The position numbers and the translations under genes were made by a program. From a virus, in UHGV virus genome UHGV-1834275: DNA of 33,070 nucleotides; one strand, given 5' to 3'. The notes under the pieces are model-generated. The model had not been told where the DNA came from. It saw nothing but the letters and a program-made list of their open reading frames with translations, and did no database searches. Every line of letters begins with the position of its first letter. Within the stretch, counting starts at the first letter, position 1. This document shows positions 21,170 through 33,070 of this stretch, one piece after another.

Positions 21170-23098
21170 TTATTTAAAGAATCCTCCACCACGTCTAGAC
21201 GGACGTACTACACGACCTGTTTTTACTGGTGCTGGTTCTTCTTTATTTACTTCTTTATTTAGTCCTTTCTCTTTTTGTTTGGCGTTGAATTCGCGTAGTT
21301 TGCGGAATGGCTGATTACCTAATTTAGATAGATACCAGTGGAAACATATTAAAGCGTAGTTAAGACAATCAAGCGTTTCATTCCTTGCTGAACTAATTTT
21401 CTTAACCCATACCCACGCCCCAGCTTTAATAACTCTCTTCTCACTTGATACCTGAATAAAGTAATCATCTGGTACTGAATGGCTGAAGTGTATTTGTACT
21501 TCACTACTATTACCACTATCCGATACTGCACGGTTTAATAGTTGTCTAATATTACTTTTCCCTAAGTTTACGTTTAGGTTTATTAGACTATGACCACCAG
21601 CCGTAGAGCCTTTAAAGAGTGGGTTAGTATTTGAAGTACCGCCCTTGATTGGTTTAAAGATTGTCGATGCACTACAATAGCGATATACCGTACTGGTTGC
21701 GTTACCGTTCGAACTATCTACAAAACCTGCAAGTACTTTAAGTGGTTTACCGGATACGGTTTTAAAGTTAGTTTGTGAAAATGCTGTTAGCTTATTCCAT
21801 GCGGGAGCCTCTATTTTAGTACAGTCAATGCTATGAATACTGCGATGATCGAGTACATAAAGATTCTTTTCACTTATTCCTAACGTTGTTACTTCAAGGC
21901 GGTCTAACTGTTGGTCTACACCTAGTACGATTCCTTGACAGTCATCCGGCACGGTATCTATATCTATTGAACTATCACGTAGGTTTTCAAGTAATACTAA
22001 ATCATGATCGGTATTCTCTTTATCAATATAAGGAAGTCCTAAGACGTTATTGTAGAATGAGGCTAGATCAAATGTATAATGTGCTTCGGCAAAATCCTGT
22101 ACTATTGATTTGATCGAGTTAATCGGGGAGTATAAACGGCTAATATGATACCCCATGATATCCGTTACTTCTGGTACTGTAGCTATCCATTCACCCTTAC
22201 GTACCATTCTTACACGTTCGGCTTCTGTGATTACATTATTACACTTAGGACATTGTAGTTTTGCTGTCTCTGCATCTGGAATGCGACGACGACCACCATC
22301 AATAATTTTCCAGTCGAATTTAACATTTTCAAATACTAATTCATGTGCATGATCACAATGTGGGCAAGGTACGTAGAACTTCTGTTTATTACTTTGCTCG
22401 TACTGCTGAGTGATTAAATCATTCTCATCAAGTGGTGTAGAACAAACCATAATAAGAGGGTTGCTAAAAGCCTTTGTACGCTGTTCTGCTAGCTTTAGTG
22501 GGTTCCCTTCATCACCATCTGCATCTACGTTAGATATTTCGTCAAGAAAGATACGGGGGGCTGTCAAGCCTCGCAAATTCGCACTACTACCCAATGTTAG
22601 GAAGTACGTAAAAGTACCGTCTAAGTTTTGTTGTGTCTTATCATTATTAGTATAGTTTTTATCATTCTTATTACTGACTAGATTTTTAAGTACTGCACAT
22701 GCTTCGATTACTGATTGCCATTTACCAGTACGAAACTTACTAGTAGTGCTGGCTGTTGCACCTGCGAAAATTAGATTGCTTGGATCATTTGCGAGGAAGT
22801 AGTACATACTATTCTGTAAAACTGTTGTTTTGAGAAGTTGTGCACTGCTCATCAAAACTATTTTTCTAATTCTTGGATTAGTAATGTCATTTATGGGCTT
22901 GTGCTGAAAGGAAAATAACTTTACGCGTTGTCCTTGTAGTTCCCCATCCGGGAATACTAAATTATTCTCTACCCATTCCGCTGGTAGTTGTCGCTTCGGA
23001 GGTAGGATCGACTTCGCCGCCCTCGTTAGTACCTTCATCATCTTCTGGTAGTTGTTCATCCGTGTATGTTCCTTCATATTCATAGCTACCAATTTCAT
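21170..23098 (-). CDS. Terminase large subunit, lambda GpA family
   Basis: LPAEWVENNLVFPDGELQGQRVKLFSFQ...SAQLLKTT parallels the lambda gpA N-terminus (TAVEWADANYYLP...FQ...SAR); C4 zinc-ribbon CPHCDHAHEL...CPKCNNV as in gpA (CPHCGEE...); C-terminal NETLDCLNYAL resembles gpA NEALDCFVYAL. The true start is probably an internal Met, since the ORF overlaps the small-subunit gene by up to 137 nt. Confidence 0.9.
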   Translation of the reverse strand: MKLVAMNMKEHTRMNNYQKMMKVLTRAAKSILPPKRQLPAEWVENNLVFPDGELQGQRVKLFSFQHKPINDITNPRIRKIVLMSSAQLLKTTVLQNSMYYFLANDPSNLIFAGATASTTSKFRTGKWQSVIEACAVLKNLVSNKNDKNYTNNDKTQQNLDGTFTYFLTLGSSANLRGLTAPRIFLDEISNVDADGDEGNPLKLAEQRTKAFSNPLIMVCSTPLDENDLITQQYEQSNKQKFYVPCPHCDHAHELVFENVKFDWKIIDGGRRRIPDAETAKLQCPKCNNVITEAERVRMVRKGEWIATVPEVTDIMGYHISRLYSPINSIKSIVQDFAEAHYTFDLASFYNNVLGLPYIDKENTDHDLVLLENLRDSSIDIDTVPDDCQGIVLGVDQQLDRLEVTTLGISEKNLYVLDHRSIHSIDCTKIEAPAWNKLTAFSQTNFKTVSGKPLKVLAGFVDSSNGNATSTVYRYCSASTIFKPIKGGTSNTNPLFKGSTAGGHSLINLNVNLGKSNIRQLLNRAVSDSGNSSEVQIHFSHSVPDDYFIQVSSEKRVIKAGAWVWVKKISSARNETLDCLNYALICFHWYLSKLGNQPFRKLREFNAKQKEKGLNKEVNKEEPAPVKTGRVVRPSRRGGGFFK

Positions 23099-23534
23099 TT
23101 AATTGATCATCTATTTTTTCCTGTAGTTTGATTTTTAATTCTAATGCGTCTGCTGATTCGAATAATTCAACATAACTTGACGCGGGAATACTTCTTAATA
23201 CTTGGCGTAGTTGGTAGAAGTATTGGGATAAAGTTTGCTGTACTACTGCTACTGGTATTAGCTCGCCGGATTGCTGACGTAATTCCATTTCTTTAATATC
23301 AGCTTCTGCTTCTAACTTACGTAGTGTTGCTTTTTGTATTTGGCCTTTTGTATCACCGCTTCTTAGTGGTTCGATTACGTTTGCAAGTAACCAATCGTCA
23401 ACTAATTTCTTAGGCCAGGTGATATCTAAACCTTTACCAGACCATATACGGCTAACAGTAGAATGCTCTACGCCGAAACGATCCGCGATTTCTTGCCACG
23501 TGTAGCGGGTTCCATCGTCTTTAATTTTTGCCAT
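22962..23534 (-). CDS. Terminase small subunit, Nu1-like (start placed at internal ATG 23534)
   Basis: N-terminal helix-turn-helix (WQEIADRFGVEHSTVSRIW), then Trp-containing and coiled-coil region (LVDDWLLANV...EAEADIKEMELRQQ) as in lambda Nu1; acidic C-terminus; AAGGA about 10 nt upstream of ATG 23534. Located immediately upstream of the GpA-like gene. Confidence 0.7.
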   Translation of the reverse strand: MAKIKDDGTRYTWQEIADRFGVEHSTVSRIWSGKGLDITWPKKLVDDWLLANVIEPLRSGDTKGQIQKATLRKLEAEADIKEMELRQQSGELIPVAVVQQTLSQYFYQLRQVLRSIPASSYVELFESADALELKIKLQEKIDDQLNEIGSYEYEGTYTDEQLPEDDEGTNEGGEVDPTSEATTTSGMGRE

Positions 23535-23763
23535 TTTGTTTAGTCCTTGTTTAGTACAATAAACCTGTACTTTCCTTTTATTTCGTTTTGTTTGTTTTCG
23601 ATTAGAAATCCCACGAATTTTAAATACAATTCGCGGCGAAAACTCGATTTTTTTGTTCTCAATTAGAGAACCTAAAGTTAAAACTTCACTCACGATTTTA
23701 ATTTTTGATTTGTAATAATATTTATATTATCATTGTATTATAAAGTAACAACAAGGACATGTA

Positions 23764-24702
23764 ATGAAACACATAATCCAAACCAGAAGTGTTTTTAAGG
23801 ATATCGAAGACTCTTTATTTAGTGAGTTGCATTCAGCTAAGACAAGTATCAAAATCTGTGTTGCATGGATAAACTTTGAGCTTTTTGAAAATATATTATT
23901 ATCTAAGGCTAAAGAAGGTGTTGAAGTTGAGATATTAGTTAATAATGATTATATCAATACAAAATTTCTTGATAAAATATCTGATAATATAAAACCATTA
24001 ATTAATCTAATTAAAAACCCTATTAGTAACCACTTAATGCATCATAAATTTTGTATCATTGATGATGAAGTTTTGATTACTGGCAGTTATAATTGGTCAA
24101 AAAGAGCACCATATCATTATGAAAATATAATAATCATCCGTAATGATTTCAATCTAATAATGCAATTTAAACATGAGTTTGCAGATTTAAAATACATGGG
24201 TGCAATGCCAAGTACAGAATTTAATGCATTTAAAGTAACCAAAAATCTCAATAGATTTGTTGTTGGCACATATAGTTCATCTGTGGGGATATATGAAACC
24301 GTCACATTGCAGTTATGGGAAATTGATATTAACAACTTAACTTTTGAACGACATGGCGAAATGGATATCCCTTTCTTCAATTATTTATTAGATATTAATA
24401 CTGATGATCATTATCTTATTGATGAAAAAGAAAGGTACATCGATCTATATGATCAAGAGCGTAGACAGATGGAGACTATCCAAAGTCATTTTAGAAGATT
24501 AAATTGTTCAATTCATGCTTATGGAACAGCAATAATAGCGAACGAGAGCGAATACCTTGAAGGTTATGAAGAGCCTATTCGTGTAATTCACTTCAATTGG
24601 ATAGATATGCGATTAAGCAAAGTATTACCCTCTTCTTTGCCCGCAACTATGGAACTTGAAGGATTATGGCACGAAATATATGCTCCAAATGGATATATTT
24701 AA
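23764..24702 (+). CDS. Phospholipase-D-family (single HKD) nuclease with an uncharacterised C-terminal domain
   Basis: Perfect HxK(x)4D(x)6GSxN motif: HHKFCIIDDEVLITGSYN; preceding KICVAWINFELFENILLSKAKEGVEVEILV typical of PLD/Nuc folds; ~170-residue C-terminal region without recognised motifs; AAGGA 7 nt upstream of the ATG. Confidence 0.8.
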   Translation: MKHIIQTRSVFKDIEDSLFSELHSAKTSIKICVAWINFELFENILLSKAKEGVEVEILVNNDYINTKFLDKISDNIKPLINLIKNPISNHLMHHKFCIIDDEVLITGSYNWSKRAPYHYENIIIIRNDFNLIMQFKHEFADLKYMGAMPSTEFNAFKVTKNLNRFVVGTYSSSVGIYETVTLQLWEIDINNLTFERHGEMDIPFFNYLLDINTDDHYLIDEKERYIDLYDQERRQMETIQSHFRRLNCSIHAYGTAIIANESEYLEGYEEPIRVIHFNWIDMRLSKVLPSSLPATMELEGLWHEIYAPNGYI

Positions 24703-24719
24703 ATAATATTCTATAATTA

Positions 24720-25094
24720 ATGAGGAACGGTATTATGTCTAATTATCCTATACCACTTAGCCTTGAATTTAATAGTCAAGATACTGCTAATATCATTTGT
24801 AGTTATCTAGAAAAAAATCATCAAGATTCTATTTTAAAAACCATATTAAATATAGATTTGTCTTTTATTGATTATCGTGCACAATCTTCTAATTACTTTA
24901 TAATTAATGACGTTGAATATATTGGAGATAATAATTATATTTTATATTATAAAATAAACTACTACATTTATAATCTCTGTAAAGATATGGATATTGATGA
25001 TGACTACGAGACTTCGATAAATTTTACATTGAATAATGGATTTTTAGTATTTGATATAATTGATTGTGAAAGAAATATATCAGATGAAATATAG
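24720..25094 (+). CDS. Small acidic hypothetical protein, co-transcribed with the PLD nuclease
   Basis: Starts 17 nt after the PLD stop; Asp/Ile/Tyr/Asn-rich; no recognised motif; followed by a hairpin terminator. Confidence 0.5.
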   Translation: MRNGIMSNYPIPLSLEFNSQDTANIICSYLEKNHQDSILKTILNIDLSFIDYRAQSSNYFIINDVEYIGDNNYILYYKINYYIYNLCKDMDIDDDYETSINFTLNNGFLVFDIIDCERNISDEI

Positions 25095-25158
25095 CCATAT
25101 TTAATTATCACTTAAGGATTTCAACATCAGGATTTAAATTTTAATTATATATAATAGT

Positions 25159-25190
25159 AAAAGCCTAATACTCATCAGTAATAGGCTTTT
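25159..25190. terminator. Bidirectional terminator between convergent accessory genes
   Basis: AAAAGCCTA (25159..25167) / TAGGCTTTT (25182..25190) 9-bp stem with 14-nt loop; A- and T-tracts built into the stem ends. Confidence 0.5.
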
Positions 25191-25197
25191 ACCTAAA

Positions 25198-25617
25198 TTA
25201 TAATTGATTCAATCGATAGATATTAGATGTACTTGAGCCATCGCTATACACCTCTGATATAGTCAGTTTGTTTCCATCCACTTTGTATTTTACTACACTA
25301 TCAGCCGGATCATTTCTCCAACGACCTGAGCTATCTGGATTGTTTGATGCCCACATAACTTGATCATCAATCAGTTTGCACTTGATAGCCCATCTTGTGC
25401 TGTCATCTTTACGTATGTAATGGACATAGGCTACATCAGATTGAATCTTATCAAGCTTCATTATTTTATGATCTCGCCCAAACATAGATGCAGCCGCCGC
25501 TTTGCAGATCTGACCAACATTAGCTTCCGCTGCGTAGAGTGAAGAACTGAACAATAATGGCACAATCACTAATAACTTTATCATCGCATATCGTCTCGTA
25601 GTAAAAATTAATTTCAC
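25198..25617 (-). CDS. Secreted/periplasmic protein with N-terminal signal peptide
   Basis: MIKLLVIVPLLFSSSLYAAEA has the n/h/c pattern of a Sec signal peptide with an A-x-A site; the track start is GTG at 25617 with AAGGA upstream, and ATG 25584 is an alternative. Mature part has paired Cys residues; no catalytic motif. Confidence 0.55.
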   Translation of the reverse strand: MKLIFTTRRYAMIKLLVIVPLLFSSSLYAAEANVGQICKAAAASMFGRDHKIMKLDKIQSDVAYVHYIRKDDSTRWAIKCKLIDDQVMWASNNPDSSGRWRNDPADSVVKYKVDGNKLTISEVYSDGSSTSNIYRLNQL

Positions 25618-25618
25618 C

Positions 25619-26344
25619 TTATTTCCTTAATAACTTTTTTAATTCCTCAACTGTCTTCATTTCTTTTCCAATATGAATCATTGCATGACAGTTTGCACAT
25701 AAAGGTATAAGATCTTCAATTGGGTCAATCTTATAGCGTTTACCAATAGTATGTAGTGGCACTATATGATGAACATGAATATAATTTTTTCCGTGACTTC
25801 CATACACTTCTTCAAAATTAAAACCACAGACACCACAACTCAAACCATGTTTATCGATACATTCTTTTCTAGCCTTTGGATCTCTCTCATAGTACGTAGC
25901 AATCCTTTGATGCTTTTCACCTTCATAGTATTCACTTTCTATTTCAGGTGTGAATGAATAGTAATCTTCATCGGTGGCATACCAATCTCCATCTTTTTTA
26001 GTAAGATATTTTCGTACTATTTTCTTTTCAAAATGTTTAATCCTAGCAGCACCATTTTCAGTTGTTTTCTCATGCCTAGTCTGGCTAAAGGTGAAAAGAC
26101 TATACCCTTCATGTAAAATTTTATCTATGTGTTCGATAGATTGTGTATAACCATTTTTTTTGTGTCCATTTACATTTTCACGCCAACTGCTAGCCAAGAT
26201 TAAAACTTTCTTACCATCATCTGATCTAAGATCTTCCCAAGCTCCAAAAATTATTTTTTTGTTGATCTCATCAATAAATGACCAACTCCAGTTATCATTT
26301 TTACATGTAGCACCCAAAGAACGCATGAACTCTGTTCGGGACAT
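25619..26344 (-). CDS. HNH endonuclease (McrA-type HNH) with an N-terminal domain of unknown function
   Basis: C-terminus CGVCGFNFEEVYGSHGKNYIHVHHIVPLHTIGKRYKIDPIEDLIPLCANCHAMIH matches the McrA-type HNH/zinc-ribbon pattern (C..CG...HH..PL...G....N...LC.NCH...H); N-terminal ~170 residues show no recognised motif. Confidence 0.8.
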   Translation of the reverse strand: MSRTEFMRSLGATCKNDNWSWSFIDEINKKIIFGAWEDLRSDDGKKVLILASSWRENVNGHKKNGYTQSIEHIDKILHEGYSLFTFSQTRHEKTTENGAARIKHFEKKIVRKYLTKKDGDWYATDEDYYSFTPEIESEYYEGEKHQRIATYYERDPKARKECIDKHGLSCGVCGFNFEEVYGSHGKNYIHVHHIVPLHTIGKRYKIDPIEDLIPLCANCHAMIHIGKEMKTVEELKKLLRK

Positions 26345-26382
26345 TTTTCATCCTTAAAATATGTGACCTACATCACATGAAA

Positions 26383-26463
26383 CTATCGACTGTAGGAGGT
26401 TTCTATCCTTCGTAAAGCTAACAAACCTACCCAAAGTAGATAGAAACCTCCTACAATCGATAG
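26383..26463. repeat. 25-bp inverted repeat (one mismatch) with 31-nt spacer in a divergent intergenic region
   Basis: CTATCGACTGTAGGAGGTTTCTATC (26383..26407) and GATAGAAACCTCCTACAATCGATAG (26439..26463) are reverse complements except for one position. Confidence 0.75.
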
Positions 26464-26547
26464 TGTATGTGTGTTCCTTTTGATGGTAAAGTATTAATAT
26501 AGTGTTACCTAGACTGGGTGTACATATAATCAATATTTGGGTTTGAT

Positions 26548-27258
26548 ATGCTTAATCTCACTAAATGTAATTTACTTTTGATCGGCACTGTAATAACTCT
26601 ATTACTGATAGCTATTCTTGTAGGTATAAAAATACTATTCTCCGATTCTAATCCAGATCTAGGCAGCTTAGCAGATTGGATCAGTTCTGTATCCGCAATA
26701 GGGACTCTTGGTGTTGCCTGGTTAGCTTATAGTAAAGCTGATGACTACATTGACAAAAAAGCTTCGGAAAGAGGAATTGATATCCTTGTCAATATGGTAA
26801 CTGAATCATTCGTTGCTTATTTCAACTCACTAAATGAAACTAATTTCCATGCTTCAAAACTTGAAAATAAAATGATATTGATTGGCTTGGTTGATGAAAA
26901 AGTAGATTGCAATATTGAACTACAATCATTAAGAGAAAAAATCATAACTCTCTTCGAAAATAGTCATCAAATAGACAAAGATTTTATAAAAATGAAAATA
27001 ATGAAAATATCAAAACCCAGTGATATTTTCTACGATCCAGTAACTAGCGATGATACATTGCAAGCGTTAAAATTAGCATTTCATAAACTGAACACTGAAA
27101 TTTGTGAGAATGAAAATCAATACAACATTAATAATGATTTACTTAGCGAAAATATCAACTTTATTAAAAACACTACCGAAAAGTTAGCCCATGATATTCG
27201 CAAACAGTTCTTTACCTCGCCGAATACTTATAAAGATTATTTTGGAAATCTGTCTTAA
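26548..27258 (+). CDS. Membrane protein with two N-terminal TM helices; paralogue of 779..1519
   Basis: LLLIGTVITLLLIAILVGIKILF then DLGSLADWISSVSAIGTLGVAWLAYSK; shares the GSLADW(L/I)SS loop motif with 779..1519; soluble C-terminal domain diverged. Confidence 0.6.
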   Translation: MLNLTKCNLLLIGTVITLLLIAILVGIKILFSDSNPDLGSLADWISSVSAIGTLGVAWLAYSKADDYIDKKASERGIDILVNMVTESFVAYFNSLNETNFHASKLENKMILIGLVDEKVDCNIELQSLREKIITLFENSHQIDKDFIKMKIMKISKPSDIFYDPVTSDDTLQALKLAFHKLNTEICENENQYNINNDLLSENINFIKNTTEKLAHDIRKQFFTSPNTYKDYFGNLS

Positions 27259-27303
27259 ATTATACGCTATCAAATATTCCATCAACATAAACAAGGAAAG
27301 TAG

Positions 27304-28002
27304 ATGACTACTCTCACTAGAACTTATAATTTACCAAATGAGCTAGTTGAACATTTTTCAAATAACATTGTCTATTTCGAAAAACTTTTGTCTAAGGATT
27401 TTTCTGACTTAAATGTTAATGTAGCACCAGAAGACATTAAGAAAATAGAAAAATCTTTCGAAGTATCACATAGAATACGTGATTTCGAAATCAATCTGTA
27501 TTGGCAAAGACTGAACTTCCTTTGGGCCATTACAGCATTGCTATTTGCTGGATGGGGAACATTGATCTTTAAAATCATCGAATTCAATGGAGGGGAAGCA
27601 CCTTATATTATATTTGCCGCCTTATCATTTCTCTCACTTATAGGTGGGATTGTAACTATATTCACAAGCTTTATCATTGAGGCAGGTAAGCATTGGCAAA
27701 AGGTTTGGGAGTTTCATGTTCACGCTCTTGAACCTTTTGTATCAGGTCATTTATATGCAATTCAGTTTTCTTATAAAAATAAAAAAAAGGCATCTATAAG
27801 TAGAAGCGTAGAAACTTTCAATTATGCTTTGCTGTTTCTTTGGGCATGTTCAGCAGTATTCGCCGCAATCATCCCTTCACAAATAGGGAACGGTCTTGCA
27901 GGCATTATCCAATTAGTTATTTCTCTTCTTATAGTTGGTGCTTTTGTTTATATACGCAACTCTGTTACTAAAAAGGAGTCTATTAAAATTCAGCTTGATT
28001 AA
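27304..28002 (+). CDS. Integral membrane protein (about 4 TM helices) with ~65-residue soluble N-terminus
   Basis: AAGGAAAG ribosome-binding site; hydrophobic segments LNFLWAITALLFAGWGTLIF, YIIFAALSFLSLIGGIVTIFTSFII, FNYALLFLWACSAVFAAII, LAGIIQLVISLLIVGAFVYI; 45 nt downstream of the 2TM gene, same strand; followed by a terminator. Confidence 0.6.
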   Translation: MTTLTRTYNLPNELVEHFSNNIVYFEKLLSKDFSDLNVNVAPEDIKKIEKSFEVSHRIRDFEINLYWQRLNFLWAITALLFAGWGTLIFKIIEFNGGEAPYIIFAALSFLSLIGGIVTIFTSFIIEAGKHWQKVWEFHVHALEPFVSGHLYAIQFSYKNKKKASISRSVETFNYALLFLWACSAVFAAIIPSQIGNGLAGIIQLVISLLIVGAFVYIRNSVTKKESIKIQLD

Positions 28003-28022
28003 TGTAGCATAAGGCATCTACT

Positions 28023-28232
28023 TTAAGCAGCCCCATAATGGGGCTTTCTTTTTTTAGCATTTACTTTTTGAATGCTCATAAGAATCTCACGTACCTTTGC
28101 TTCATTATCACCTGCATCATATAGTACCCCATCTTTCCAGTACTGACCCAGTAGTTCTACTTTTGGTAAGCCCGGCATTGCCCTTACTCCATCTTCGTGA
28201 TCAATATGTAATTCAAGTGATCCAATAATCAT
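28023..28232 (-). CDS. Small hypothetical protein (questionable)
   Basis: ORF only; its last ~10 codons are encoded by the plus-strand terminator hairpin and T-run. Confidence 0.3.
   Translation of the reverse strand: MIIGSLELHIDHEDGVRAMPGLPKVELLGQYWKDGVLYDAGDNEAKVREILMSIQKVNAKKRKPHYGAA
28029..28055 (+). terminator. Rho-independent terminator of the 26548..28002 membrane-protein operon
   Basis: AGCCCCA (28029..28035) / TGGGGCT (28039..28045) stem, 3-nt loop, then TTCTTTTTTT. Confidence 0.6.
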
Positions 28233-28429
28233 TGCACGAAAGTTGTTAGGGTTAATTGAAAGTATTCTGCATCGTCTGGTTGTAGTTCAGCGTAATATTC
28301 TGGTGTGCTATCAAATGTAATTTCATTATTGATCATTACGCCCTGTGTATTTACTGCATATCTACGTTGTTTCATTCGGTCAAATAATAGTATTCCTTTC
28401 ACGCGGTGATATGTTGTTAGTTCCCTCAT
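28229..28429 (-). CDS. Small hypothetical protein
   Basis: ORF with 4-nt overlaps to both neighbours (operon-like). Confidence 0.4.
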   Translation of the reverse strand: MRELTTYHRVKGILLFDRMKQRRYAVNTQGVMINNEITFDSTPEYYAELQPDDAEYFQLTLTTFVQ

Positions 28430-28689
28430 TTGGTTAGTCCTTGGTAGTAAGCCTTAGTAGCTCTGATATTGAATTCTTTGTTTAGGTGTGTATATGATGG
28501 CATATGCCCGTTATCCGTCATGTATCGCTCTATGTAGGCCGTAAGTAGTTCTAACTTGGTTGGGCTTACATCTGGTGTATCACTCAATAGAGAGCGTTTA
28601 GGGGCGTTATAGAGGCCATCACTTCGACCGCCTTGATTCTTGATATTGTGGCGTAGTGTATTCCACTTACCGGGCTTTTGTTTTGGCAT
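28426..28689 (-). CDS. Small basic hypothetical protein (start at ATG 28689 rather than track start 28755)
   Basis: AGGAG about 9 nt upstream of ATG 28689; translation begins MPKQKPGKWNTLRHNIKNQGGR; first gene downstream of the repeat-rich control region. Confidence 0.45.
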   Translation of the reverse strand: MPKQKPGKWNTLRHNIKNQGGRSDGLYNAPKRSLLSDTPDVSPTKLELLTAYIERYMTDNGHMPSYTHLNKEFNIRATKAYYQGLTK

Positions 28690-28755
28690 AGTATTGTACT
28701 CCTGTACTGGTTGATTAATTGGGGCGGCGACTCGTTCACACCTGCGGCGGTTCAC

Positions 28756-29156
28756 TGCGTGGCGACTTCAAGAGACTTTGAATAACTGACTTTCAGTAGT
28801 ATCTCTTGAGTACTTACACCTACTGGAGTGAGCGAAAGCGAGAAAAGCACGCTTGCGGGTTTTCGATGCGATAGCGAGAAAAACGCAATGTGATACCCTT
28901 ATGTGTTTTTTATAGGGATAATAGATAAGACGCTTTAGCGGATTAGCTATTATCCCTCTGAATAATAGATATGGCGTATTTTATATCTGTTTTTCATCTT
29001 TCCATTAGAAAGTAGGATAATTATAATAGGTTGGAAAGATGCCATTTTGCCCCCCATTTTAACGGTAGAATGCGGGTTTCAGGGGTGTTGTTGGCCATAT
29101 TTTCACACCATCTTTCCATCAAAGGGATTCCCACGCTAAACAGTTGGAAAGATGAT
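28756..29156. promoter_or_regulatory. Repeat-rich non-coding control region (candidate operators / iterons / attachment-type site)
   Basis: Four copies of TTGGAAAGATG or its complement in alternating orientation (28995..29004, 29032..29041, 29109..29118, 29145..29154), forming two inverted pairs with 26-27 bp spacers; perfect 10-bp inverted repeat GGGATAATAG / CTATTATCCC (28915..28924, 28947..28956); direct repeats of AGCGAGAAAA and ATAATAGATA. Confidence 0.5.
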
Positions 29157-29633
29157 TTATAGTGAATTTATGTATACCTTGATACTTCCTAAGCTAGTTC
29201 CATCCCTCATCATCTGGTGTACTTTCTTTTTTTCGTGCTGTGTTAGCTGTCGTGCATCACCCTTTAGTGCATACTTGATCATTACGCCGTGATTGTATGC
29301 CTCTAATAGTTCGTGTGCGGCCTTTACTGCAATGTTTCTATAATTATATAGCATTGACTTGTTTAGCGGCTTCTCGTTCCATTTCATGCGATTCTGGCGG
29401 CGAGTATTCACGGTATGTTGTACTTCCTCTATTCCAATCATAGGACACTCTAAAACCAGCTTTAGGATCTCTAACCTACTAACCTTAGTACGGCTAGTGG
29501 TTCCTTCAAACTCTTTAGTAATGACTTCATCAATAATATCTATTGCTTCTGGTGTAAACTGATTCAAAAACTTATAACCTGATAAAACGTTGTGTAAGTC
29601 TGTATTGTCGTATAATTTCTTTTTTCCTGCCAT
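29157..29633 (-). CDS. Hypothetical protein, possible regulator (start placed at ATG 29633)
   Basis: AAAGG about 10 nt upstream of ATG 29633; C-terminal ARQLTQHEKKKVHQMMRDGTSLGSI could be a helix-turn-helix; no firm family assignment. Confidence 0.45.
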   Translation of the reverse strand: MAGKKKLYDNTDLHNVLSGYKFLNQFTPEAIDIIDEVITKEFEGTTSRTKVSRLEILKLVLECPMIGIEEVQHTVNTRRQNRMKWNEKPLNKSMLYNYRNIAVKAAHELLEAYNHGVMIKYALKGDARQLTQHEKKKVHQMMRDGTSLGSIKVYINSL

Positions 29634-29708
29634 AATAAATACCTTTATAAAATGTGTTATGTTCCTTAATGGCGTTATGGTGTTTTCTCCCACCATAACG
29701 CCTTTTTA

Positions 29709-30194
29709 TTAGTTGTCTTTTGCAACCTTTGTATATGTCTGTCTATGTGTACTTCTATTGTACTTTTCATTCATGAATAGCGTGATATTGATACATGACA
29801 TTCCACCAGTGTATAACGCCTTTACTTCATCTTTTTGTACTGGTGTTAGACGTGGTTCATTTTGTTTCTTACGTACTGCCTTACATGAATTTTCACTATA
29901 TGTAATCCACTGCAAATTAGAAATATTGTTGTCTCGTTTATCACTATTGATATTATCTACAACTAATCTTTTATTTGTTTGGGGTTTACTTAGAAATGTT
30001 TCTGCTACGAGTCTGTGTGTCTCTATCGGATATGATTTAGATTTCCCATCCTCATAAACAGTTAAAGTAACTTTATAGTACCCATTACTTTTACTATAAC
30101 TCTGTGTTAGATAATTACCCGTTTTAGTATTGCGTACTTCTCCGTTACTACTTACTTCATAATTTACATATTGTGTTTGTTTCCATAATGTCAT
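29709..30194 (-). CDS. HNH homing-endonuclease-like protein (NUMOD4-like N-terminus plus HNH_3-like core)
   Basis: YEVSSNGEVRN...NGYYKV...HRLVAETF...VDNINSDKRDNNISNLQWITYSEN matches the phage free-standing HNH endonuclease pattern (Y.VS..G.V...G....h.lva..f.....v.H.d..k.nN...NL.w.t..eN), but with Asn where the first His is expected. Confidence 0.7.
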   Translation of the reverse strand: MTLWKQTQYVNYEVSSNGEVRNTKTGNYLTQSYSKSNGYYKVTLTVYEDGKSKSYPIETHRLVAETFLSKPQTNKRLVVDNINSDKRDNNISNLQWITYSENSCKAVRKKQNEPRLTPVQKDEVKALYTGGMSCINITLFMNEKYNRSTHRQTYTKVAKDN

Positions 30195-30272
30195 TTTCTC
30201 TTCCTTGGACTATGGGGTACTGTGCAATCCTTGCAAGTACATGAGTAATACTTTTTACGATAGTATCAAACG

Positions 30273-30494
30273 TTATTGATTTTCGATTAGTAGTTTGAAA
30301 GTTGGAAAATTCATCCTTTCAAATAGTTCTGTATGTAGTTTACGTGTTGTGTGGTAATACTTCATATCTTTATAGAAATCAGAATGGATTACCGTATTAC
30401 AGTACGTTTTACCATTTGGTTTAGATACATCTGCAATTAGTACATTGTCGGTATCGGTACGTACATTGTTAAAATGGAATTCGCCAAAGTTCAT
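30273..30494 (-). CDS. Hypothetical protein, translationally coupled to the upstream RHH ORF
   Basis: ATG overlaps the stop of the 51-aa ORF (TAATG); GGAGGA upstream; no recognised motif. Confidence 0.5.
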   Translation of the reverse strand: MNFGEFHFNNVRTDTDNVLIADVSKPNGKTYCNTVIHSDFYKDMKYYHTTRKLHTELFERMNFPTFKLLIENQ

Positions 30495-30649
30495 TACTTC
30501 TTTCCTCCTAAGATTACTTGTTGATTGAGTAGATATTGTAAAGCGGTACTCATTGATTTTGCTTTCCCTTCATCAATGATACTTTGTAGTACATTGTGTT
30601 GATGTTCGTTTAGACGTGCTGATACTTTGTATTCTTTATTTTCTTTCAT
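30494..30649 (-). CDS. Ribbon-helix-helix (Arc/MetJ/CopG-like) DNA-binding protein, 51 aa; not in the supplied track
   Basis: Translation MKENKEYKVSARLNEHQHNVLQSIIDEGKAKSMSTALQYLLNQQVILGGKK: short beta-strand (KVSARL) followed by two helices, typical of RHH repressors or antitoxins; AAGGA about 7 nt upstream of the ATG. Confidence 0.5.
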   Translation of the reverse strand: MKENKEYKVSARLNEHQHNVLQSIIDEGKAKSMSTALQYLLNQQVILGGKK

Positions 30650-30847
30650 TGATTTTCCTTTTGTCTGCAAATCCTTAAAAATTTCATGTAAAAATCACCC
30701 CGTAGGGATACGGGGTAATAACAAAATCTAAGGAGGAGGGATTTTAATATTCACACTTATTTATGAGATGAGAGCGGTCGCCCCCTTCATATACTATTAT
30801 TATATCACATTTTGCCCATTTCGTCCCAGAAATCGACAAAATCAATT

Positions 30848-31012
30848 TTAAGTGGCTGATTTATATGTATTTATTACAGAAGTCGCGATTATCGCCATAA
30901 TGCATAAGAAGAGATATACTAAAAATGCAATGTATAGATAAACTATCCACCCGGTGATCATAAACACCATACCTACCACTAATACAAAAGCACTGACTAA
31001 CCAATCTAACAT
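30848..31012 (-). CDS. Small hydrophobic membrane protein (54 aa); not in the supplied track
   Basis: ATG at 31012 preceded by AAGGGG; translation MLDWLVSAFVLVVGMVFMITGWIVYLYIAFLVYLFLCIMAIIATSVINTYKSAT (two hydrophobic helices). Confidence 0.4.
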   Translation of the reverse strand: MLDWLVSAFVLVVGMVFMITGWIVYLYIAFLVYLFLCIMAIIATSVINTYKSAT

Positions 31013-31058
31013 AGTTTCCCCTTATAATTATTATGTACAATTATTTATCAATAAGACG

Positions 31059-31097
31059 AAAAAAAGCCCCGTAATGCGACATCAATCGATACGGGGC
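31059..31097 (-). terminator. Rho-independent terminator downstream of the recombinase gene
   Basis: On the minus strand GCCCCGTA (31090..31097) / TACGGGGC (31066..31073) 8-bp stem, 16-nt loop, followed by TTTTTTT (plus-strand A7 at 31059..31065), about 75 nt after the recombinase stop. Confidence 0.6.
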
Positions 31098-31171
31098 ATA
31101 ACAACTACTACTATATTATTTTTTGTTTACGGTATTTCTAATCTACTTTCTAGGCCAAAATAAATGCCCGT

Positions 31172-33070
31172 CTAGATCTGGTCTATCCGATAACGCTCTA
31201 TGAACTCTTTACGTGTTAAACCAGTCGATTCTAATGCAGTGGCTATATCCTTTGGAACTCGACCATTCAAGGCAATACTATATGTATTGCCTTCATACAC
31301 AATGTCTACTCGATCATACTTTCCGGTATTAGGCCAGAATGAAGCCCCACTTATTTCACTATAACCAACCACTTCTAACATCTCATTAGCAGTATTGAAC
31401 AGATCTAAATAACTTTGTTCAATTTTATCAAGTTGTTCCACTGCTTTATTAAATAATGGCAGATTGCTAGTGGTAAGAAATCCTTCATCTCTGATACTTA
31501 CATTATCAACAGAAGAAAATTCAACTTTAAACGCCCAATGTGGTTTTCTATCAGTTCCACCAAAAACTAACCATTCATCTTTAAAATGATACTTTATTTT
31601 TATCGTTATACACCCATCAGTTTTATCAACTATAACACTTTCAATAATAGAACTAATTACTTTCCTTATTTTATTTCTATCCGTATCCTGCATATTTGTA
31701 AAAACCGCCCACTGAATAAGAATCATAAATTCATTTATATCGACTTCTAGAGATCCTTTACCTTTCAGTGAATATAAGCGTTCTTTTAACTTATCAACTT
31801 CCAGAACAGTCTTTTTACGTTCCATATCAAACGCATTTAGTTGAACTGCTAACGCACTAACATTAGGAGCAATTGCTATTGCTTGAGCCATGTTTGTTAT
31901 GCGAGATTCCAGATCAGTTATCAACGTTTCTTTTCTACTGAGGTCTTCTTCTATCACAGTTGTGTCAATACCATCTTTTAGTCTCTTATTCATGTAACCG
32001 ATCAGTAGTGAAATGATCGTACAGTGTTCAACTAATTGTGCTGATATAGACCAGCCAGAACAGTTTTTTTGTAAGTGAACCCCATTAGTACAAATATAGC
32101 GAGCACTGCCATGATTCATGAAAGAATGCATAGTTCCTCCACACTTGCTACACCGTAACACCTGCAACCCTGATAACAATTTAATTTCTTCTACTTTGTC
32201 TTTCTTAGCCTTGAAGTTGTTTTGCTGCTTACGTTCAGCCAAGGTTAAATACTCTGCTTCATCTTTGCATAACCATGGATAGTAGTTATCAAGTTTGTAA
32301 GTAGCACCACCAGCATTGATAGTCCTTTCACCAATCAACGCCCGATTATCACGCATCTTTTTCAATACCTGATAATCCCATTCTTTACCCTTTAAACCAT
32401 TAGGATATTTTTTATCGAGATGACGCTTTACTGTATAGATGCCATTCCCATCTAAAAACATGTCTATAGCTTCGCGAGCGATACTCCAGTAAACGGGATG
32501 TTCTTTTACTGCTTCATATTGCGAACCTGAATCATCTATCCAAAATGGATGGCGACCAACTGACTTAATGTTTACTGGCAACCCTGCTTTATGACGTTCG
32601 ACCAAGGCAACAACATTGCCTATGGTCCTGTTAGATTTCGTTTCTGATTCTTCATTGCCACGGATAAACATCAGAATAGAAATCATCAGATCAGTAGGGT
32701 TTTGTCTGATGGATTCTCTGTTATAGACCTTCCGATCCATTCCTGTGACAATCGTTAGCCCTAAACCAATCAATTCAAGGAATAAACGAAGTGCTTCATC
32801 CACCTGATCGCGTGATAGTCGGTCGAGGTTTTCACAGTAAAGCCAAGAGTCAGACGGTATAGCATTATTTTTTACGGCGTCTATGAAGTCACCCAACTTA
32901 CCCGCCCTATTTTTTCCCCTGTAAGCACTCGTGCCAGGTTCCAAAATTTCAACCATTTCAAGCCCCGCTTCTTCAGCATAGGCTTTCGCTGCCGCTACCT
33001 GCCTGTTCTTGGTTGTTCCTTTTTCTTGGCGATCACTTGACCACCTGATATAGCTATAAAGTTGCGGCAT
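31172..33070 (-). CDS. Large serine recombinase (phage integrase of the resolvase/invertase superfamily)
   Basis: N-terminus MPQLYSYIRWSSDRQ has the catalytic-serine motif (Y.R.SS..Q) of serine recombinases; 632 aa with Cys-rich region (CSKCGGTMHS...CTNGVHLQKNCSGW) and long C-terminal extension typical of large serine integrases. The start codon is at the last base of the window. Confidence 0.85.
   Translation of the reverse strand: MPQLYSYIRWSSDRQEKGTTKNRQVAAAKAYAEEAGLEMVEILEPGTSAYRGKNRAGKLGDFIDAVKNNAIPSDSWLYCENLDRLSRDQVDEALRLFLELIGLGLTIVTGMDRKVYNRESIRQNPTDLMISILMFIRGNEESETKSNRTIGNVVALVERHKAGLPVNIKSVGRHPFWIDDSGSQYEAVKEHPVYWSIAREAIDMFLDGNGIYTVKRHLDKKYPNGLKGKEWDYQVLKKMRDNRALIGERTINAGGATYKLDNYYPWLCKDEAEYLTLAERKQQNNFKAKKDKVEEIKLLSGLQVLRCSKCGGTMHSFMNHGSARYICTNGVHLQKNCSGWSISAQLVEHCTIISLLIGYMNKRLKDGIDTTVIEEDLSRKETLITDLESRITNMAQAIAIAPNVSALAVQLNAFDMERKKTVLEVDKLKERLYSLKGKGSLEVDINEFMILIQWAVFTNMQDTDRNKIRKVISSIIESVIVDKTDGCITIKIKYHFKDEWLVFGGTDRKPHWAFKVEFSSVDNVSIRDEGFLTTSNLPLFNKAVEQLDKIEQSYLDLFNTANEMLEVVGYSEISGASFWPNTGKYDRVDIVYEGNTYSIALNGRVPKDIATALESTGLTRKEFIERYRIDQI

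What the first reader, a model, noticed from the sequence alone, without database searches (positions are those of the whole stretch)
23764..25094. Single-HKD PLD nuclease with unknown C-terminal domain plus small acidic partner ORF
The sequence contains an exact HxK(x)4D(x)6GSxN motif (HHKFCIIDDEVLITGSYN) within a Nuc-like N-terminal domain of about 150 residues. A further ~170 residues have no recognisable motif and could be a sensor or specificity domain. A 124-codon acidic ORF follows 17 nt later on the same strand, which is the arrangement expected for a toxin/immunity or effector/regulator pair. Single-HKD nucleases act as dimers and occur in restriction-like systems.
Basis: partly seen in the sequence, partly recalled or inferred. 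Interest (0 to 1): 0.75.

Follow-up and report, generated by a model that had tools for sequence, protein, structure and literature searches.

The report
Prophage PLD nuclease, no true partner
A prophage carries a real, uncharacterised Nuc-like phospholipase-D-family nuclease gene fused to a domain seen nowhere else, probably a one-gene defence against foreign DNA, but the small acidic gene after it is not its conserved partner.

Summary

The toxin/immunity-pair reading is not supported. The two genes are adjacent only in the window's own clade (PLD at least 79% identical). More distant PLD homologues, in the same terminase-adjacent prophage slot or in defence islands of Pseudomonas, Vibrionaceae, Cupriavidus and others, lack the small gene. 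Small-gene homologues occur without any PLD gene. In one Citrobacter genome an IS remnant splits the small ORF while the PLD gene stays intact.

The C-terminal domain occurs only in this fixed architecture: 60 clusters among 1.84 billion representatives. It is acidic. It has a CCCH site in 71% of 65 aligned members, lost in this clade, and only a weak RNase-H-like topology.

Best reading: a stand-alone, dimeric, metal-independent nuclease whose unique C-terminal domain gates or targets it. It is prophage cargo acting as a restriction-like, single-gene defence. This is a new variant of a known kind, untested experimentally.

The parts
23705..23733 (+). Weak sigma-70-like promoter candidate (TTGATT-17-TATCAT) in the 70-nt divergent intergenic region between the TerS-like gene and the PLD gene. 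AAGGA (23753-23757) lies 6 nt before the ATG.
   Evidence: 9 of 12 match; promoter-like sites are not enriched over shuffles, so this is only a candidate; sequence read.
23764..24702 (+). PLD-family gene, 312 aa, cytoplasmic (no signal peptide or TM segment seen in the sequence).
   Evidence: dN/dS 0.13-0.21 against L005/L008.
23818..24186 (+). Nuc-like single-HKD PLD catalytic domain (aa 19-141).
24040..24093 (+). Catalytic motif H93-x-K95-x4-D100-x6-G107-S108-x-N110.
   Evidence: Read directly; all six residues invariant in 65 homologues.
24205..24699 (+). Family-specific C-terminal domain (aa 148-312). Alpha/beta, order b1-b2-b3-helix-b4-helix-b5, acidic (pI 4.7). Conserved G175, W185, R233, A252, G254, W279, K286, P289. 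The CCCH site present in 71% of the 65 aligned members is replaced here by K157, K160, D188, T193.
24735..25094 (+). Small acidic ORF, 119 aa (alternative start 24720 gives 124 aa). A real gene of a small, Enterobacterales-only prophage family with invariant YYIYNLCKDMDI. Not a conserved partner of the PLD gene.
   Evidence: phrog_13663 (unknown function) E=6e-5. No Pfam, PADLOC, NCBIfam or PDB match.
25157..25192 (.). Hairpin flanked by an A-run and a T-run between the convergent small ORF and the 139-aa gene; a likely bidirectional terminator ending the PLD/small-ORF transcript.
   Evidence: RNAfold -17.6 kcal/mol; sequence. It was not picked up by the simple terminator scan.
26548..27258 (+). 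Context: 236-aa protein with an N-terminal TM segment. Members of this fast-diverging family lie on the same strand directly after, or one gene after, small-ORF homologues in other prophages. It is therefore a more recurrent neighbour of the small ORF than the PLD gene is.
   Evidence: 28-44% identity to L103, L104 and L012 proteins.
27304..28002 (+). Context: 8xMP octameric membrane protein (PF24838). A 49%-identical copy lies in the small-ORF cluster of Enterobacter cloacae L104.

Best explanation
The 312-aa protein is a stand-alone, cytoplasmic member of the PLD superfamily with one HKD motif. Like Nuc, it should dimerise through the N-terminal domain to build one active site and cut phosphodiester bonds without metal ions, through a covalent phospho-histidine intermediate. 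Its most probable substrate is nucleic acid. The 165-residue C-terminal domain occurs only in this family. It has no conserved catalytic acids and is net acidic, so I infer it is a regulatory or target-selecting module that decides when or what the nuclease cuts, not a second enzyme. The gene is divergently transcribed cargo in the accessory slot beside the small-terminase gene of a gpA-terminase prophage of Pseudocitrobacter faecalis. It most likely protects the lysogen against incoming phages or other foreign DNA, as a one-gene, methyltransferase-less, restriction-like defence. The 119-aa acidic ORF downstream is a real but separate prophage cargo gene. Shown here: gene, motif, fold, family limits, contexts, and lack of co-conservation. 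Inferred: dimerisation, nuclease substrate, defence role, and the role of the C-terminal domain.

For: Stand-alone status: immediate neighbours differ in every lineage examined.

C-terminal domain: a profile search of 1.84 billion representatives finds 60 clusters, all with the same ~300-325-aa architecture or fragments of it. There is no invariant acidic residue, and the median pI is 5.1 across the family.

Defence context: 119 neighbours of 13 diverse family loci hit SIR2/ThsA/Dsr1 (3), TIR/bSEFIR (2), LmuA, AriA, AbiLi, type I and IIG R-M, mads, PDC-S02/06/25/54, Cas8f/Csy3, KAP NTPase and DUF6119. In the window it lies beside an HNH protein with a type-IV-restriction-like HNH domain. It sits in a low-GC (28.5%) cargo block between TerS and the serine recombinase.

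Precedent: END nucleases are single-gene PLD nucleases whose C-terminal domain sets specificity, and PADLOC and DefenseFinder also missed them (PMC12191111).

Against the pair.
Against: No experiment exists for any member. An acidic C-terminal domain is not what a DNA-reading module usually looks like. No solved structure resembles it, so its role is a guess. The PLD gene has diverged about as much as the terminase in the related prophages (PLD 41-52% against TerL 44-49%), so it may be an old resident that serves the phage itself. Within the window clade the PLD and small genes are always adjacent, 32 nt apart, have no terminator between them, and have diverged to a similar degree (79% and 77% in L008). 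A clade-specific functional link is therefore not excluded. PLD enzymes also act on lipids and other phosphodiesters.
Confidence: 0.5

Rival explanations
1. Two-gene module. In this clade the acidic 119-aa protein binds and restrains the PLD nuclease, acting as an immunity or regulator protein or as a DNA-mimic inhibitor. It releases the nuclease on infection.
For: Same strand, 32-nt gap, no terminator between the genes and a shared hairpin terminator after them. Always adjacent in the window clade, with similar divergence. The protein is very acidic (pI 4.05). There is a precedent for a PLD nuclease that is toxic alone and tamed by a partner: AgaP with pAgo (PMC11442185).
Against: There is no co-conservation beyond about 79% identity. 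At least ten PLD lineages lack the small gene, including five related prophages that use the same slot. At least four small-ORF lineages lack the PLD gene. An IS remnant splits the small ORF in L102 while the PLD gene remains intact. A promoter-like site (10 of 12) lies just upstream of the small ORF.
Confidence: 0.12
2. The PLD gene serves the phage's own cycle rather than the lysogen. Examples are degrading host or competitor DNA after induction, nucleotide scavenging, or processing DNA ends near packaging.
For: It occupies the same terminase-adjacent slot in six prophage lineages, with divergence tracking TerL. Nuc-like enzymes are non-specific nucleases (established knowledge of Nuc).
Against: It is transcribed divergently from the late structural operon and has its own intergenic region. 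About half of the sampled family lies outside prophages, in chromosomal defence islands. The family is essentially absent from 50,697 sequenced phage genomes; only two weak hits to the N-terminal domain were found.
Confidence: 0.15
3. It is not a nucleic-acid nuclease. Instead it is a PLD-type phosphodiesterase acting on another substrate, such as cardiolipin or other phospholipids (as first proposed for MitoPLD), or on nucleotide second messengers. That would make it a membrane effector or a signal-degrading enzyme.
For: The best sequence match among solved structures is annotated 'mitochondrial cardiolipin hydrolase'. There are weak NCBIfam matches to cardiolipin synthase. Membrane-protein genes lie nearby.
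Against: Those cardiolipin-synthase matches are far below their cut-offs (16 bits against 290). The closest folds are Nuc and NucT, and the Zucchini structures hit here are, to my knowledge, of a single-strand-specific nuclease. The protein has no membrane segment or lipid-binding element.
Confidence: 0.08
4. The small ORF belongs functionally with the downstream membrane-protein genes (the 236-aa TM family and 8xMP). It is adjacent to the PLD gene only because cargo cassettes are packed together; the convergent 139-aa/HNH cassette lies between the small ORF and the TM236 gene in this clade.
For: In Buttiauxella L103 and E. cloacae L104-106 the small ORF is followed after 9-10 nt by a TM-family gene. 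In Enterobacter L012-016 a 143-aa ORF follows after 10 nt and the TM-family gene comes next. These TM proteins are homologous to window 26548-27258. In L104 there is also an 8xMP gene 49% identical to the window's.
Against: L012, L103 and L104 share one prophage backbone, so they are not independent observations. Proteus L017 has the small ORF next to a RelA/SpoT-domain gene and no TM-family gene. L107 has the TM-family gene without the small ORF. L101 has the small ORF without TM236 or 8xMP.
Confidence: 0.15

Closest known systems
Nuc (IncN plasmid pKM101 endonuclease, PDB 1byr/1bys) and NucT of Helicobacter pylori
   Different: Nuc and NucT are ~155-180-aa single-domain proteins. Nuc is exported, from my knowledge of the family. 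The window protein has no signal peptide and carries an extra 165-aa domain. NCBIfam NucT models score 37 bits against cut-offs of 211-351, so it is not an orthologue.
END nucleases (END-PaCF1 and relatives; PMC12191111)
   Same: [quoted passage not shown] Found in defence islands and missed by PADLOC and DefenseFinder. This is the best functional analogue.
BfiI and R.NgoAVII (type IIS restriction enzymes, PDB 2c1l, 4rct)
   Same: An N-terminal PLD nuclease dimer plus a C-terminal specificity domain of similar total size (345-358 aa).
Zucchini / MitoPLD (PDB 4ggj, 4gel)
   Different: It is a eukaryotic, membrane-anchored piRNA-biogenesis nuclease with no counterpart of the C-terminal domain.
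PLD components of multi-gene defence systems (MkoC/MkoB of Mokosh, DrmC of DISARM, DpdK; AgaP of pAgo systems)
   Same: PLD-domain effectors in anti-phage systems. PADLOC domain-level hits are 1.9e-8 to 6.5e-5. AgaP shows that a PLD nuclease can need a partner (PMC11442185).
   Different: The matches cover the PLD domain only. None of the helicase, methylase, Dpd or Argonaute partner genes is present near the gene in the window or in homologous loci.

Membership tests
PLD superfamily, single-HKD Nuc-like nucleases | HxK(x)4D(x)6GSxN motif with all catalytic residues | tested here: met
   H93, K95, D100, G107, S108, N110; invariant in 65 homologues.
PLD superfamily, single-HKD Nuc-like nucleases | PLD alpha/beta fold of about 150 residues | tested here: met
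PLD superfamily, single-HKD Nuc-like nucleases | Homodimer forming one active site; metal-independent nuclease activity | not testable with these tools
   No multimer prediction or biochemistry is available here; inferred from Nuc and BfiI.
NucT / Nuc orthologues (NCBIfam equivalogs) | Score above the curated equivalog cut-off | tested here: not met
   20-37 bits against cut-offs of 211-351.
BfiI/NgoAVII-type IIS restriction enzymes | C-terminal B3-like pseudobarrel DNA-binding domain | tested here: not met
BfiI/NgoAVII-type IIS restriction enzymes | Adjacent cognate methyltransferase | tested here: not met
   No methyltransferase domain in the flanking genes 21170-33070.
END nucleases | C-terminal inactivated EndoIII/OGG1-like (HhH-GPD) domain | tested here: not met
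END nucleases | Single gene, no methyltransferase, defence-island location | tested here: met
   This is a resemblance in organisation only.
Mokosh / DISARM / Dpd (PLD-containing multi-gene systems) | Presence of the other system genes (RNA helicase; DrmA/B/MTase; Dpd cluster) | tested here: not met
   PADLOC hits are confined to the PLD domain, and neighbours carry none of these genes.
Toxin-immunity / toxin-antitoxin gene pair | The two genes are co-inherited across the family's diversity | tested here: not met
   Adjacency only at PLD identity of 79% or more. Each gene occurs without the other in several lineages. An IS-split small ORF sits beside an intact PLD gene in L102.
Toxin-immunity / toxin-antitoxin gene pair | Toxicity of one product neutralised by direct binding of the other | not testable with these tools
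   Needs expression and interaction assays.
RNase H-like fold (for the C-terminal domain) | b1-b2-b3-helix-b4-helix-b5 core with significant structural similarity | tested here: inconclusive
RNase H-like fold (for the C-terminal domain) | Conserved carboxylate catalytic residues | tested here: not met
   No acidic column is invariant or near-invariant. The best are E232 at 85% and position 173 at 63%, which is S in the window protein.

The most novel reading that the evidence does not exclude
This is the founding example of an undescribed single-gene anti-phage nuclease family. It combines a Nuc-like PLD dimer with a private, acidic C-terminal sensor domain of a new or extremely diverged fold; that domain is Zn-stapled in most members and Zn-free in the enterobacterial prophage clade. 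The domain would keep the nuclease off until it meets a phage-derived cue, which could be a protein, a modified DNA or a DNA end. The family has been kept for a long time in the terminase-adjacent cargo slot of one prophage lineage and scattered through defence islands of Proteobacteria.
Probability: 0.45. Interest if true: 0.55.

Novelty: new variant of a known kind. Interest (0 to 1): 0.45.

Why it matters
If confirmed, it would add one more sensor module to the growing class of modular, methyltransferase-less PLD restriction nucleases (BfiI, SauUSI, END). Current defence finders miss this family. The C-terminal domain has no significant match in the PDB or in the predicted viral protein structures (BFVD). 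It is restricted to one fixed architecture, so solving what it recognises would define a new trigger or specificity principle. The natural pair of Zn-site-containing and Zn-site-free variants is a ready-made structure-function comparison. The work also removes a false lead: the neighbouring acidic gene should not be annotated as the nuclease's immunity protein on adjacency alone.

Tried and rejected
- DNA searches of the 1.6-kb region against 50,697 phage genomes (blastn) and all complete E. coli genomes (megablast) found no match. The source was instead identified as Pseudocitrobacter faecalis DSM 27453 through the genome-contig scan.
- Protein search of phage genomes found only two weak hits to the PLD N-terminal domain and none for the small ORF.
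- PDB profile searches with the C-terminal domain and with the small-ORF family found nothing, even at E<=10.
- Foldseek against AFDB50 for the C-terminal domain was not possible because the library was unavailable. BFVD gave nothing significant.
The full-length alignment was used instead.
- I considered a SIR2-like or ~420-438-aa neighbour as the real partner in Pseudomonas (L003, L023, L026). I rejected it: only two of the neighbours are homologous to each other, their orientation and position differ, and other lineages lack them.
- I considered it as an active RNase-H-like nuclease. I rejected it for lack of conserved carboxylates.
- The small protein's structure was not predicted.
- Literature searches found no paper on this family.

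Full report
**1. What is in the sequence**

The two ORFs are exactly where the finding puts them: 23764-24702 (+, 312 aa) and 24720-25094 (+, 124 aa). Residues 93-110, HHKFCIIDDEVLITGSYN, fit HxK(x)4D(x)6GSxN. This is not a chance motif:
- Pfam PLDc_2 matches aa 19-141 at E=5e-20, 72 bits against a cut-off of 27.
- H93, K95, D100, G107, S108 and N110 are invariant in an alignment of 65 full-length homologues.
- An AlphaFold2 model built on that alignment is confident (mean pLDDT 91.7, pTM 0.88).
- A profile search of PDB sequences gives the same list: Zucchini/MitoPLD 1.7e-21, NucT 2.4e-13, Nuc 1.7e-11.

The second ORF is acidic (pI 4.05). It is conserved down to 39% identity in Enterobacterales and is under purifying selection, with dN/dS 0.12-0.18; the PLD gene gives 0.13-0.21. 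Its start is more likely ATG 24735 (119 aa). GAGGA lies 8 nt upstream of that ATG, nothing similar precedes 24720, and most homologues (9 of the 12 clusters) are 119 aa. A strong hairpin (25157-25192, -17.6 kcal/mol), flanked by an A-run and a T-run, follows it.

**2. Where the window comes from**

The window is a prophage of Pseudocitrobacter faecalis DSM 27453 (L018), also catalogued in IMG/VR (L109).
- The minus strand carries lambda-type structural genes: tail tip, a tail-fibre/tailspike-like protein, capsid, portal, gpA terminase and a TerS-like gene.
- From 23764 to about 30200 lies a low-GC cargo block, 28.5% GC at 24-25 kb.
- In order, that block holds the PLD gene, the small ORF, a convergent 139-aa exported protein, and a 241-aa HNH protein whose HNH domain resembles type IV restriction enzymes (PADLOC 1.6e-9).
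- It continues with a 236-aa protein bearing an N-terminal TM segment, an 8xMP membrane protein, small ORFs, a NUMOD4-HNH_3 endonuclease and a large serine recombinase.

**3. Is the small ORF the nuclease's partner?**

Comparative genomics says no.
- The two genes are adjacent only in the window's own clade, where the PLD protein is 79-100% identical: L005-L009, L018, L098-L102, L109. There the whole TerS-to-HNH region is syntenic, so these are not independent observations.
- At PLD identities of 41-55%, five further prophage lineages with gpA terminases (TerL 44-49% identical where measured) carry the PLD gene in the same TerS-adjacent, divergently transcribed slot. None has the small ORF: L010/11, L107, L110, L111, L112.
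- K. michiganensis (54%) has only the PLD gene. So do the 28-35% homologues in Photobacterium, Marinomonas, Campylobacterales, Cupriavidus, Pseudomonas, Achromobacter, Azospirillum and Moraxella. Their immediate neighbours are unrelated to one another and often lie on the opposite strand.
- The small-ORF family has about 20 clusters, all from Enterobacterales. It occurs without any PLD gene in Enterobacter roggenkampii (L012-016), E. cloacae (L104-106), Buttiauxella (L103) and Proteus (L017) prophages.
- In Buttiauxella and E. cloacae the small ORF is followed after 9-10 nt by proteins with an N-terminal TM segment that are homologous to window 26548-27258. In E. roggenkampii a 143-aa ORF follows after 10 nt and the TM-family gene comes next. 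L104 also has an 8xMP gene 49% identical to the window's. In Proteus the downstream gene, about 260 nt away, encodes a 382-aa RelA/SpoT-domain protein.
- In Citrobacter freundii L102 a ~1.05-kb IS5-like remnant splits the small ORF near codon 27, while the 95%-identical PLD gene is intact.

None of this excludes a clade-specific interaction. It does remove the main argument for a pair, which was adjacency.

**4. The C-terminal domain**

- Modelled alone (aa 145-312, pLDDT 85.9), it has the order b1-b2-b3, helix, long helix, b4, helix, b5, helix.
- The weak tails of both structural searches are dominated by RNase H-like and ASKHA folds: EndoV, RuvC, Cas12/Cas9/IscB RuvC domains, PIWI, terminase nuclease, integrase, glucokinase and exopolyphosphatase. 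That fits the strand order, but I rate it as a hint only.
- The domain has no conserved carboxylates. Its near-invariant residues are G175, W185, A252, G254, W279, K286 and P289, with R233 at 86%. It is net acidic throughout the family: median pI 5.1 and median net charge -10.
- In 71% of the 65 aligned members, C-C-C-H residues link the inter-domain linker to the b2-b3 hairpin, a probable structural zinc site. In the enterobacterial prophage clade these are K157, K160, D188 and T193.
- A profile of the domain searched against 1.84 billion cluster representatives finds only 60 clusters. All have the same 300-325-aa PLD-plus-domain architecture or are fragments of it. The domain is private to this family and has never been shuffled onto another effector, as far as HMMER can see.

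**5. Context of the family**

I scanned 119 neighbours (within 6 kb on either side) of 13 diverse family loci against PADLOC and Pfam. They hit the following:
- SIR2/ThsA/Dsr1 (3 proteins) and TIR/bSEFIR (2);
- LmuA, AriA and AbiLi;
- type I and type IIG restriction-modification genes;
- mads genes and PDC-S02/S06/S25/S54;
- Cas8f/Csy3, KAP NTPase, PD-(D/E)XK nucleases, NERD and DUF6119.

The family therefore lives in defence islands and in prophage cargo slots. PADLOC itself recognises the protein only at the level of the PLD domain (MkoC 1.9e-8, DpdK, DrmC, MkoB). NCBIfam NucT models score far below their cut-offs. Every named homologue is annotated as 'phospholipase D-like domain-containing protein' or 'hypothetical protein'. 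I found no paper describing the family.

**6. Mechanism**

Shown here: an intact Nuc-like catalytic domain under strong constraint, a private non-catalytic C-terminal domain, stand-alone inheritance and a defence-type context.

Inferred from Nuc and BfiI: dimerisation through the PLD domain to form one active site, and EDTA-resistant cleavage through a phospho-histidine intermediate.

Inferred from context and from the END-nuclease precedent (a single-gene PLD nuclease whose C-terminal domain sets specificity; PMC12191111): a restriction-like, methyltransferase-less defence in which the C-terminal domain decides when or what is cut. Because the domain is acidic, I think it more likely gates the enzyme or senses a protein than acts as a classical DNA reader. 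That step is speculative.

Rivals, with my estimates:
- A phage-serving nuclease (0.15). This is favoured by the apparent co-divergence with the terminase.
- A clade-specific PLD/small-protein module (0.12).
- A non-nucleic-acid substrate (0.08).
- Separately, the small ORF may belong with the membrane-protein genes (0.15).

**7. Comparison with known systems and verdict**

The protein works like, and structurally belongs to, the single-HKD nuclease branch of the PLD superfamily.
- It is not a Nuc or NucT orthologue.
- It is not a BfiI/NgoAVII-type enzyme: there is no B3 domain and no methyltransferase.
- It is not an END nuclease: there is no EndoIII-like domain.
- It is not part of Mokosh, DISARM, Dpd or pAgo systems: none of their partner genes is present.

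It is best called a new variant of a known kind, meaning a modular PLD nuclease with a previously undescribed C-terminal module. The finding is real and moderately interesting. Its most eye-catching claim, the toxin/immunity pair, is the part the evidence does not support.

Noticed in passing
window 25619-26344 (-) and 25198-25617 (-): A 241-aa protein whose C-terminal HNH domain resembles type IV methyl-directed restriction enzymes (PADLOC mREase_IV 1.6e-9; Pfam HNH 3.6e-8), with an unassigned N-terminal 140 residues. The start of a 139-aa protein with a signal-peptide-like N-terminus lies 1 nt beyond its stop on the same strand. Possibly a second defence gene in the same cargo block. The cassette is conserved at 88-100% in the clade (89% HNH in L101).
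   Followed up: partly
window 26548-27258 (+) and 27304-28002 (+); L005, L008, L103, L104, L107: The 236-aa protein with an N-terminal TM segment diverges very fast (98%, 50% and 32% identity in phages whose flanking genes are 82-100% identical). The adjacent 8xMP membrane protein (PF24838) stays at 82-100%. TM-family genes recur next to small-ORF homologues and next to PLD homologues in other prophages. This looks like a diversifying membrane module, perhaps for superinfection exclusion.
   Followed up: partly
L017 6001-7769 (Proteus sp. prophage): A 60%-identical homologue of the small acidic ORF lies 260 nt upstream of a 382-aa protein with an N-terminal RelA/SpoT domain (PF04607, 2.4e-23). 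Its size and layout recall fused toxSAS defence proteins such as CapRel. It sits between the tail-fibre genes and the integrase.
   Followed up: no
L102 2913-4075 (Citrobacter freundii): A ~1.05-kb IS5-like transposase remnant is inserted into the small ORF near codon 27. The two halves match at 81% and 88%, and the upstream PLD gene is left intact. This is a natural disruption allele.
   Followed up: partly
PLD family alignment A1, columns 199, 214, 245, 251 (window residues K157, K160, D188, T193): A CCCH tetrad, a probable structural zinc site, is present in 71% of the 65 aligned members. It has been replaced by Lys/Lys/Asp/Thr in the enterobacterial prophage clade, possibly a salt-bridge substitute for the metal.
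   Followed up: partly
window 22962-23693 (-) against 21170-23098 (-): The longest reading of the TerS-like ORF (243 aa, GTG start) overlaps the start of the terminase large-subunit ORF by 137 nt. Gene calls in related contigs give 175-190 aa for TerS and 560-651 aa for TerL, so the true starts of both genes are uncertain.
   Followed up: no
window 29709-30194 (-): A NUMOD4 + HNH_3 homing-endonuclease-like gene (161 aa) lies in the cargo/early region between the membrane-protein genes and the large serine recombinase (31172-33070).
   Followed up: no
L023 4238-5497 and L026 7755-9071 (Pseudomonas): A 419-438-aa protein with no Pfam match (63% identical between the two loci) lies near the PLD homologue in both. 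It is on different sides and strands in the two loci. It is unrelated to the SIR2_2 protein found beside the PLD homologue in L003.
   Followed up: partly
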